Shown piece by piece: positions 48,001 through 51,000 of a DNA stretch of 64,000 nt. Position numbers: made by a program. The DNA is taken from NCBI RefSeq assembly GCF_058153355.1, contig NZ_CM177019.1; one strand, given 5' to 3'. The number at the start of each line of letters is the position of its first letter. Within the stretch, counting starts at the first letter, position 1.

Positions 48001-51000
48001 CGGACGGGTCGGAGTTATCGCGGTTGGCCATCTGGTTGCCCTGCTCTGTCCAGCTACCGGTGTAGATCCAGCAAGAAGATGCGGTTGTACCGTCATCACG
48101 CAGATGCGCAAAGCTACTCAGCAACTGACCTTTTTTCGCAATCAGCACGCCATTAGCGTCATAGAGATCTTCCAGCGCATAGCCGTTGTTCTCTTTTGCC
48201 ACTTCGTCTGACTGCGGCTCGTGCGGCTGCTTGTAGTTCCAGCTCATCTTCATCAGCGGTTCTACACCTTTACCACCTTCGGCTTTGTACAACTCGCGAA
48301 GATGATGGTAGATACCCGCCAGAATTTCGCCGTCGTTACGTGCTTCGCCTGGCGCGTCCTGACCTTTCCAGTGCCACTGCAACCAGCGACCGGAGTTAGC
48401 GATAGAACCATCTTCTTCAGCAAAGCAGGTCGAAGGCAGACGGAATACCTCTGTCTGAATAGACGCCGGATCGACATCGTTCGACTCGCCGTGGTTCTGC
48501 CAGAAAGTAGAGGTTTCAGTCACCAGCGGATCGATAACCACCATGTACTTCAGCTTGCTCAGGCAGCTCACCACTTTGTTTTTGTCCGGGAAGGACGCAA
48601 CCGGGTTAAAGCCCTGGCAGAAATAACCTGTGACTTTGCCTTCATCCATCATGTTGAAATACTTGATGACGTCGTAGGTCTGGTCCCACTTCGGCAGCCA
48701 GTCATAGCCCCAGTTGTTCTCTTTCTGCGCGGCATCGCCGTAGAAAGATTTCATCAGGCTAACGAAGAACTTCGGATAGTTGCTCCAGTAGTTCACCTGA
48801 TCAGCCAGCGTCGCTTTCGGCGTGTTCGCTTCCAGATACGACTGCAAATCAACCTGTTTTTCTGACGGCAGCGTCAGATAACCCGGCAGGCTGGTAGAGA
48901 GCAGGCCTAAGTCGGTCAGGCCCTGAATGTTAGAGTGACCACGCAATGCGTTCACGCCGCCACCAGCCATACCCATGTTACCGAGCAGCAACTGGATCAT
49001 CGCCATAGTACGGATGTTCTGCGCACCCACGGTGTGTTGGGTCCAGCCCAGCGCGTACAGGAAGGTGGTGGTGCGATCCGGCGCGCTGGTGGAGGCCAGC
49101 ACTTCACACACTTTCAGGAAGTCGGCTTTTGGTGTACCGCAGATGTTTTCAACAACGTCCGGCGTGTAGCGGGAAACGTGTGCTTTCAGCAGGTTCCACA
49201 CACAGCGCGGATGAGTCAGTGTTTCATCGCGTTTCGCATAGCCGTTTTCATCGAACTGATAGTTCCAGGACGATTTATCGTATTGCCGTTTTTCAGCGTC
49301 ATAACCGCTGAACAGGCCGTCTTCAAAAGTAAAATCATCACGCACCAGCAAGCTGGCGTTGGTGTAATGCTTAACGTATTCGGCATTGATTTTGTTGTTT
49401 TCGATCAGGTAGCGCAAAACGCCAGACAGGAACGTAATGTCCGTACCGGAACGAATAGGTGCGTAGATATCCGCCACAGAAGCGGTACGCGTAAAACGGG
49501 GATCGACAACGATCAAGGTTGCATCGTTGTTGTTTTTCGCTTCCATCGCCCAGCGAAAACCGACGGGATGCGCTTCAGCAGCGTTACCGCCCATCACCAT
49601 TACGACGTTAGCGTTTTTGATATCCACCCAGTGGTTGGTCATCGCACCGCGACCAAATGTTGGAGCAAGACTTGCTACCGTTGGTCCGTGTCAGACGCGC
49701 GCCTGGTTGTCTACCGCCAGCATCCCGAGGGAGCGGGCAAATTTCTGTGTCAGCATCCCGGTTTCGTTGCTGGCACCGGAAGCACACAGCATACCGGTAG
49801 AAAGCCAACGGTTTACCGTTACGCCCTGCTCATTCTTTTCAATAAAGTTAGCGTCACGGTCTGCCTTCATCAGCTTCGCAATGCGGGAGAATGCTTCTTC
49901 CCAGCTAATGCGCTGCCATTTGTCAGAACCTGGCGCACGATATTCCGGGTAGCGCAGACGGTTTTCGCTGTTGACGTAATCCAGCAATCCGGCCCCTTTC
50001 GGGCACAGCGCACCACGGCTTACCGGATGATCCGGGTCACCTTCAATGTGATAAATCGCTTCTCTGGCGTTTTTCGCGCCATCACCCAGGCTATACATCA
50101 ATAGCCCGCAACCTACGGAACAGTATGTACAAGTGTTACGGATCTCTTTCGCGCGTAATAATTTGTAGTTTCGCGCCTGAGCCAGTGCTTGCTTCGGGGC
50201 AAAACCCAATGCCGCGACTGTTGTTCCCGCCATACCGCCCGCGCAGATTTTAAAAAATTGTCTGCGACTGACGTCCATTGCTTTCCTCTTTTTTCAGGGG
50301 TATTACTGCGCGAGGAAACTAACAGTAAAATTCTGAATCTTTTTGCGCGAAATCAAAAAGAACAGCTGTTTGCCACAAAATAATCCGCCTGCGCAAATTG
50401 ACCTACCTCAATAGCGGTAGAAAAACGCACCACTGCCTGACAGGCCAGTTAAAAAAATGCTATAAAATTCAGCTTAATTTTTAACGGCAAGAGAGAGAAA
50501 ACAGCGAGCATGACACGACAAAAAGCAACGCTCATAGGGCTAATAGCGATCGTCCTGTGGAGCACGATGGTAGGATTGATTCGCGGTGTCAGTGAGGGGC
50601 TCGGTCCGGTCGGCGGCGCAGCTGCTATCTATTCATTAAGCGGGCTGCTGTTAATCTTCACGGTTGGATTTCCGCGTATTCGGCAGATCCCGAAAGGCTA
50701 TTTACTCGCCGGGAGTCTGTTATTCGTCAGCTATGAAATCTGTCTGGCACTTTCCTTAGGTTATGCAGCGACCCGTCATCAGGCAATTGAAGTGGGTATG
50801 GTGAACTATCTATGGCCCAGCCTGACAATTCTCTTTGCCATTCTGTTTAATGGTCAGAAAACCAACTGGCTGATTGTACCTGGATTATTATTAGCCCTGG
50901 TCGGTGTCTGCTGGGTGTTAGGCGGTGACAATGGGTTACACTATGATGAAATCATCAATAATATTACCACCAGTCCATTGAGTTATTTCCTGGCGTTCAT

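What the first reader, a model, noticed from the sequence alone, without database searches (positions are those of the whole stretch)
50279..50509. Divergent fdnG-yddG control region with FNR-like half-site match
The 230-bp interval between divergent fdnG and yddG contains TTGCG-N4-ATCAA (50333-50346), a partial match to the FNR consensus TTGAT-N4-ATCAA at a suitable distance from fdnG, plus heptamers resembling NarL sites (such as TACCCCT on the fdnG strand). This fits known anaerobic/nitrate control of fdnGHI, but the exact sites are uncertain.
Basis: partly seen in the sequence, partly recalled or inferred. Interest (0 to 1): 0.2.

Follow-up and report, generated by a model that had tools for sequence, protein, structure and literature searches.

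The report
Known fdnG FNR/NarL promoter region

Summary
The window is E. coli. The 231-bp gap 50279-50509 lies between divergent fdnG (- strand, ATG 50278) and yddG (+ strand, ATG 50510).

**FNR box.** It is the database-annotated FNR site of fdnG, published at -42.5. Both half-sites (TTGAT, CGCAA) are essentially invariant across 15 enterobacterial genera. It ranks 10th of 63,987 positions with an FNR weight matrix.

**NarL sites.** The four published heptamers (-124, -109, -100, -77) are all present exactly, at 50381-50434. The 7-2-7 pair at -104.5 keeps its position in 60 of 64 related loci. However, it lies at +6..+12 in the transcribed leader, is not an annotated site, and is absent outside Escherichia.

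A second, already annotated FNR box (TTGAGGTAGGTCAA, 50398-50411, -97.5) is the best FNR match in the whole window. It overlaps the -100 NarL heptamer and occurs only in Escherichia.

The parts
50343..50356 (-). Primary FNR box TTGATttcgCGCAA, centred at -42.5 from the fdnG start site (class II position).
   Evidence: Unique exact match. FNR matrix score 10.3, rank 10 of 63,987. Listed as an FNR site of b1474. Position -42.5 is published. TTGAT is 100% and CGCAA 99% conserved in 15 genera, while the N4 spacer is only 53% conserved.
50316..50324 (-). Likely extended -10 element of the fdnG promoter, TGtTAGTTT.
   Evidence: 93% conserved across 15 genera. Its distance from the FNR box centre is fixed (28 in the script's units; 29 in three loci) in nearly all the loci scanned. 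Its function is inferred from consensus and position.
50307..50307 (-). Inferred fdnG transcription start (A), giving a 29-nt leader.
   Evidence: This is the only +1 that puts the FNR box at -42.5 and the four heptamers at -77, -100, -109 and -124 together, as published. It was not measured here.
50404..50419 (-). NarL/NarP 7-2-7 inverted heptamer pair TACCGCTatTGAGGTA (heptamers -109 and -100; centre -104.5).
   Evidence: Both heptamers are annotated for b1474 and flagged as a 7-2-7 pair. Rank 4 of 63,985 7-2-7 scores in the window. The best-scoring 7-2-7 sits exactly 62 bp upstream of the FNR box centre in 60 of 64 distinct loci.
50428..50434 (-). Published NarL heptamer -124 (AGTGGTG; reverse complement CACCACT).
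   Evidence: Annotated for b1474. Weak matrix score of 1.76. No NarL-like heptamer at this position outside Escherichia: 0 of 64 loci score 2 or more.
50381..50387 (-). Published NarL heptamer -77 (CGGATTA; reverse complement TAATCCG).
   Evidence: Annotated for b1474. Matrix score 4.19. NarL-like in only 9% of loci, i.e. Escherichia only.
50398..50411 (-). Second FNR box TTGAGgtagGTCAA, centred at -97.5.
   Evidence: Best FNR matrix hit of the whole window, score 15.8. It is the matrix-predicted site under the FNR ChIP-seq peak in Myers 2013 (PatSer ln p -12.93). Listed as an FNR site of b1474. Present only in Escherichia; half-site conservation is 0.44-0.49, at the gap average of 0.53.
50296..50302 (-). 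Most likely not a working NarL site.
   Evidence: Perfect consensus, score 9.26, but not among the annotated sites. No partner heptamer. Conservation 0.28. In Citrobacter and Salmonella this spot carries a ~55-nt leader insertion.
50284..50288 (-). fdnG Shine-Dalgarno core GAGGA.
   Evidence: Conserved run at +20..+24, upstream of the ATG at 50278.
50458..50466 (+). Likely extended -10 element of the divergent yddG promoter, TGcTATAAA, with cTGACA at 50437-50442 as a possible -35.
   Evidence: 91% conserved across 15 genera. 108 bp from the FNR box in 43 of 58 loci, range 107-111. The simple promoter scan did not list it because its rule needs T at hexamer position 6. Function is inferred.

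Best explanation
This is the known control region of the E. coli fdnGHI operon (formate dehydrogenase-N).

**Mechanism (established knowledge).** Without oxygen, the [4Fe-4S] FNR dimer binds TTGAT-N4-CGCAA at -42.5. That site overlaps the -35 region, so FNR recruits RNA polymerase directly as a class II activator. With nitrate, phosphorylated NarL binds the 7-2-7 heptamer pair at -104.5. In Escherichia it also binds single heptamers at -124 and -77. This raises transcription strongly. NarP can occupy only the 7-2-7 pair.

**Shown here.**
- The annotated sites match the window exactly.
- The matrix scores are above background.
- The architecture 'FNR box, 62 bp, 7-2-7 pair, plus an extended -10' is conserved across Enterobacteriaceae.

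**Inferred or taken from the literature.** The start site and the protein contacts.

**Two further points.** The same gap also holds the likely yddG promoter.
For: **Identity.** 5413 of 5426 complete E. coli genomes hold this stretch, annotated as fdnG and yddG.

**FNR.**
- The box TTGCGCGAAATCAA and a second box TTGAGGTAGGTCAA are both listed as FNR sites of b1474.
- The -42.5 position is published.
- fdnG is tabulated as activated by FNR in nitrate and by NarL.

**NarL.**
- The annotated heptamers CGGATTA, TGAGGTA, TACCGCT and AGTGGTG occur exactly in the window.
- With +1 at 50307 they fall at -77, -100, -109 and -124, the published positions.

**Scores.** FNR box rank 10 of 63,987; 7-2-7 pair rank 4 of 63,985.

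**Conservation.**
- FNR half-sites are 99-100% conserved in 15 genera; the spacer is free to vary.
- The 7-2-7 pair is at the same offset in 60 of 64 loci.
- NarL-like heptamers fill the -109 and -100 slots in 78% and 89% of loci, against 1.4% background.
Against: - No start site, footprint or expression data exist for this strain. The +1 is inferred by matching published numbers.
- The primary footprinting and mutagenesis papers (Li & Stewart 1992; Li, Kustu & Stewart 1994; Darwin et al. 1996; Wang & Gunsalus 2003) were not held in the library. Positions therefore come from secondary sources.
- The -42.5 box is absent from the part of Myers 2013's list of predicted sites (threshold ln p -10.75) that I read: part 1 of 2, which holds the ChIP-bound sites. 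The -97.5 box is listed there.
- The ChIP-seq peak centre lies 10.5 bp from the -97.5 box and 44.5 bp from the -42.5 box. This does not discriminate between them, because 29% of peaks lie at least that far from their site.
Confidence: 0.95

Rival explanations
1. The upstream box at -97.5 (50398-50411), not the reader's box, is the main FNR site occupied in vivo. It would either compete with NarL/NarP for the -100 heptamer or act on the divergent yddG promoter from roughly -69/-70.
For: - Best FNR matrix score in the window: 15.8 against 10.3.
- It is the matrix-predicted site listed under the ChIP-seq peak in Myers 2013, and it is nearer the peak centre.
- It is already annotated as an FNR site.
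- It overlaps the -100 heptamer completely.
Against: - It is found only in Escherichia. Other genera score mostly below 5 anywhere else in the gap, apart from occasional unrelated boxes of 8.5-11.4 at other offsets, yet all keep the -42.5 box.
- -97.5 is half a helical turn away from the usual class I positions for fdnG.
- yddG appears in none of Myers 2013's tables of FNR- or oxygen-dependent expression.
- ChIP resolution cannot separate two sites 55 bp apart.
- The published comparison names -42.5 as the FNR site.
Confidence: 0.2
2. TACCCCT at +6..+12 is a working NarL site. It might damp or fine-tune transcription from within the leader.
For: Perfect consensus heptamer, the same sequence as strong NarL heptamers at narG. 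Score 9.26 of 9.55, about 0.09 such matches expected in the gap on both strands. Kept in all six Escherichia loci.
Against: - Not among the annotated fdnG heptamers.
- A lone heptamer without a 7-2-7 partner.
- Its position downstream of +1 would predict repression, whereas nitrate induces fdnG.
- Conservation is 0.28, and the region is disrupted by indels in other genera.
- The leader shows no unusual RNA structure (z = 0.15).
Confidence: 0.1
3. The motif matches are chance occurrences in an A+T-rich gap and have no regulatory meaning.
For: Consensus-with-mismatch counts are near background.
Against: - Exact identity to database-annotated sites.
- ChIP peaks at this locus.
- Near-invariant half-sites and fixed spacing across about 20 genera, while the flanking sequence is saturated with change.
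Confidence: 0.01

Closest known systems
E. coli K-12 fdnGHI promoter (fdnGp): FNR at -42.5 and -97.5; NarL heptamers at -124, -109, -100, -77
   Same: Within the 231-bp gap the window differs from K-12 at 3 positions (50497, 50391, 50365), none inside a site. Every annotated site is present letter for letter.
   Different: Nothing of substance. This is a different E. coli strain: 100% identical to strain N96 and 95-99% to most genomes over the 431 bp searched.
Other FNR-plus-NarL co-activated promoters (narG, nirB, nrfA, napF)
   Same: An FNR box near -41.5/-42.5 combined with NarL heptamers upstream, with a 7-2-7 pair as the high-affinity element.
   Different: Here the 7-2-7 pair lies far upstream, at -104.5, against -69.5 and -74.5 for nirB and nrfA (from my own knowledge). 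One FNR half-site is the imperfect CGCAA, and it is kept that way in all genera examined. The hcp site TTGATTTAGCGCAA shares this half-site.

Membership tests
Class II FNR-activated promoter | FNR box resembling TTGAT-N4-ATCAA | tested here: met
   TTGATttcgCGCAA matches 8 of 10 consensus positions. Matrix score 10.3, rank 10 of 63,987. Half-sites are invariant in 15 genera.
Class II FNR-activated promoter | Box centred near -41.5/-42.5 from the transcription start, overlapping the -35 region | tested here: inconclusive
   No start-site data were available here. The position is consistent: the conserved extended -10 lies a fixed distance downstream of the box, and a single +1 at 50307 reproduces all five published positions.
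Class II FNR-activated promoter | FNR occupancy in vivo and FNR-dependent expression | not testable with these tools
NarL/NarP-controlled promoter with a 7-2-7 site | Two inverted TACYYMT heptamers separated by 2 bp | tested here: met
   TACCGCTatTGAGGTA has 2 mismatches to the degenerate consensus. Rank 4 of 63,985. Same offset from the FNR box in 60 of 64 loci. Flagged as a 7-2-7 pair in the curated list.
NarL/NarP-controlled promoter with a 7-2-7 site | Published NarL footprint positions (-124, -109, -100, -77) present | tested here: met
   All four annotated heptamers are found exactly, at the positions published.
   It lies at +6..+12, is absent from the annotated set, and is not conserved.

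The most novel reading that the evidence does not exclude
The ancestral enterobacterial fdnG switch may be minimal: an FNR box at -42.5 plus one NarL 7-2-7 pair at -104.5. Escherichia would then have added extra sites on top:
- a second FNR box at -97.5 that overlaps the -100 NarL heptamer, so FNR and NarL/NarP could compete there;
- single heptamers at -124 and -77;
- the +9 TACCCCT.

The nearly fixed 108-bp spacing between the conserved yddG -10 element and the FNR box, across otherwise unconserved sequence, might also mean that the NarL pair serves both divergent promoters. That would tie the YddG exporter to nitrate signalling.
Probability: 0.15. Interest if true: 0.3.

Novelty: already known. 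Interest (0 to 1): 0.08.

Why it matters
It matters little as a discovery. This promoter has been dissected since the early 1990s, and its sites are in RegulonDB. Three things are useful from this check:

- **Conservation result.** Only the -42.5 FNR box and the -104.5 7-2-7 pair are shared across Enterobacteriaceae. The other annotated E. coli sites are specific to the genus.
- **A caution for scans.** The best matrix score (-97.5) is not the conserved site, and a perfect consensus heptamer (TACCCCT) is probably not a site at all.

Tried and rejected
- **Consensus-with-mismatch searches** for the FNR box and the 7-2-7 pattern gave near-background counts. They cannot settle the matter, so I replaced them with weight matrices and conservation.
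- **The simple promoter and terminator scan** found nothing in 50150-50650. Its rule needs T at the last -10 position, which both likely -10 elements lack or which the FNR box replaces.
- **Primary papers** were not held. One literature search was malformed and another was wasted on an unspecific term.
- **ChIP-seq peak centre** cannot choose between the two FNR boxes: offsets of 44.5 bp or more occur at 29% of peaks.
- **yddG regulation by FNR or nitrate:** I found no supporting paper.
- **Rfam** found no RNA family in the gap.
- **The fdnG leader** folds no better than shuffled sequence.
- **The cluster of four TACCCCT copies at 10287-10798** lies inside a fimbrial-adhesin-like ORF and is unrelated.

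Caveat: the FNR matrix was built from sites that Myers 2013 had already selected with a matrix, so it leans towards the consensus.

Full report
**Where we are.** A 431-bp stretch (50179-50609) spanning the finding matches 5413 of 5426 complete E. coli genomes. It is annotated everywhere as fdnG (formate dehydrogenase-N alpha subunit) and yddG (aromatic amino acid exporter). In the window, fdnG runs on the - strand with its ATG at 50278. yddG runs on the + strand with its ATG at 50510. The gap between them is 231 bp.

**Checking the observation.** TTGCG-N4-ATCAA occurs once in the window, at 50343-50356. On the fdnG strand the motif reads TTGATttcgCGCAA.

As a bare pattern it is not significant. 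Twenty-six of 100 shuffles contain it. The FNR consensus with up to 2 mismatches gives 55 hits against 43 expected.

I therefore built an FNR weight matrix from 62 ChIP-bound sites in Myers et al. 2013, Table S6, leaving fdnG out. With it the motif scores 10.3 and ranks 10th of 63,987 positions. That corresponds to 0.034 such hits expected in the gap.

TACCCCT is on the fdnG strand at 50296-50302.

**What the literature says.** The RegulonDB/CoryneRegNet sets reproduced in the MotifAdjuster supplements list two FNR sites for b1474 (fdnG):
- CGCTATTGAGGTAGGTCAATTTGC.

They also list four NarL heptamers: CGGATTA, TGAGGTA, TACCGCT and AGTGGTG. The middle two are flagged as a 7-2-7 pair.

Babujee et al. 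2012 (PMC3349551) give the positions as FNR at -42.5 and NarL heptamers at -77, -100, -109 and -124.

All of these sequences are present letter for letter in the window. A single start site, the A at 50307, puts every one of them at its published position:

| Site | Window coordinates | Position |
|---|---|---|
| FNR box | 50343-50356 | -42.5 |
| NarL heptamer | 50381-50387 | -77 |
| NarL heptamer | 50404-50410 | -100 |
| NarL heptamer | 50413-50419 | -109 |
| NarL heptamer | 50428-50434 | -124 |
| Second FNR box | 50398-50411 | -97.5 |

[quoted passage not shown] The primary footprinting papers were not available.

TACCCCT is a perfect consensus heptamer. It scores 9.26 of 9.55, and 25 equal or better heptamers occur in the window. 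But it lies at +6..+12, inside the 29-nt leader. It is not an annotated site and has no partner heptamer. The true NarL sites are 80-130 bp further upstream. The 7-2-7 pair there ranks 4th of 63,985 in the window.

The best FNR matrix hit in the entire window is TTGAGGTAGGTCAA at 50398-50411, with a score of 15.8. It is the matrix-predicted site under the ChIP-seq peak in Myers 2013 (ln p -12.93), and it overlaps the -100 NarL heptamer. The peak centre is 10.5 bp from this box and 44.5 bp from the -42.5 box. However, 29% of peaks in that study lie at least 44.5 bp from their site, so the ChIP data do not choose between the two.

**Comparison across species.** I searched with YddG in one genome per species and obtained 80 loci. 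Of these, 64 have fdnG divergent from yddG and were used, with gaps of 219-368 bp. The genera include Escherichia, Citrobacter, Salmonella, Klebsiella, Raoultella, Enterobacter, Kluyvera, Leclercia, Lelliottia, Kosakonia and Phytobacter.

In a 15-genus alignment the mean conservation of the gap is 0.53. Individual features compare as follows:

| Feature | Conservation |
|---|---|
| FNR -42.5 half-site TTGAT | 1.00 |
| FNR -42.5 half-site CGCAA | 0.99 |
| FNR -42.5 spacer (N4) | 0.53 |
| TGtTAGTTT, likely fdnG extended -10 (50316-50324) | 0.93 |
| TGcTATAAA, likely yddG extended -10 (50458-50466) | 0.91 |
| -97.5 FNR box half-sites | 0.44-0.49 |
| TACCCCT | 0.28 |
| -124 heptamer | 0.26 |

The -42.5 box is the best-conserved 5+4+5 window in the whole gap.

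The best-scoring 7-2-7 pair lies exactly 62 bp upstream of the FNR box centre in 60 of 64 distinct loci. NarL-like heptamers fill the -109 and -100 slots in 78% and 89% of loci, against 1.4% background. The -124 and -77 slots are NarL-like in 0% and 9% of loci.

The conserved core is therefore 'FNR at -42.5 plus a 7-2-7 pair at -104.5'. The -97.5 FNR box, the -124 and -77 heptamers and TACCCCT are specific to Escherichia.

**How it works.**
- *Established knowledge.* FNR acts as a class II activator at -42.5 under anaerobiosis. NarL-phosphate bound upstream gives nitrate induction. NarP binds only the 7-2-7 pair.
- *Shown here.* The sites, their scores and their conservation.
- *Inferred.* The start site and the -10 assignments.

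**Verdict.** This is a rediscovery of a known promoter. The FNR box is correct but mis-located by 10 nt. The NarL example is not a published site, and nothing here supports it as a working one. A second annotated FNR box was missed. Nothing new in kind was found. The genus-specific layering of accessory sites and the fixed spacing to the yddG promoter are minor leads.

Noticed in passing
window 49638-49696 (- strand); TGA at 49691-49693: Rfam SECIS_3 hit (84.3 bits, E = 6e-20) starting at the in-frame TGA that ends the 195-aa ORF. This is the selenocysteine codon (Sec196) and its insertion element in fdnG.
   Followed up: partly
window 50373-50386 (fdnG strand, -79..-66): A block GGATTATTTTGTGG aligns with GACTATTAAGGGGG or GACTATTTAGTAGC in other genera, with TATT invariant. 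It overlaps the published -77 NarL heptamer, yet outside Escherichia it is not NarL-like (TAG... on the reverse strand). It might be an RNA polymerase alpha-CTD docking site or the site of another factor. Unexplained.
   Followed up: partly
window 50458-50466 versus 50356; loci L003-L072: The distance from the conserved yddG -10 element to the FNR box is 108 bp in 43 of 58 loci (range 107-111), although the sequence between them is not conserved. By contrast, the fdnG leader varies from 74 to 223 bp between FNR box and ATG. This suggests a constrained geometry of the divergent promoters.
   Followed up: partly
L009, L012, L013, L017, L019, L024, L025, L034, L071 (fdnG leaders); also L042 and L058: The Citrobacter freundii group and Salmonella carry an extra ~55 nt inside the fdnG leader, between about +10 and the ribosome-binding site. 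Enterobacter wuhouensis and Phytobacter diazotrophicus have ~110-150 nt extra. E. coli's TACCCCT spans the junction where this segment is missing.
   Followed up: no
window 51651-55014: Downstream of yddG lie an intact 366-aa OmpC/OmpN-like porin and leucine-rich-repeat proteins, one with a run of 16 serines. Strain N96, which is 100% identical over the 431 bp searched around the gap, has these annotated as 'porin OmpC' and 'leucine-rich repeat domain-containing protein'. From my own knowledge, the K-12 counterparts yddL/yddK/yddJ are partly degraded.
   Followed up: no
window 10287-10798 (+ strand): Four of the ten TACCCCT copies in the window fall within 500 bp, inside a 304-aa fimbrial-adhesin-like ORF (9975-10889). 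This is a coding-sequence coincidence unrelated to NarL.
   Followed up: yes
E. coli strain FEA3, NZ_CM132924.1 (hit H15): The match to the region starts at query base 98 (window 50276, the fdnG start codon). The 5' end of fdnG therefore seems to be missing or interrupted in that strain.
   Followed up: no
window 2605-2620 and 56222-56237: The two best 7-2-7 NarL-type matches in the window are TACCTATAATTGAGTA (15.1) and TACTCCTTTTGGGATA (13.3). The second should lie inside or near narU, judging from the gene order in strain N96.
   Followed up: no
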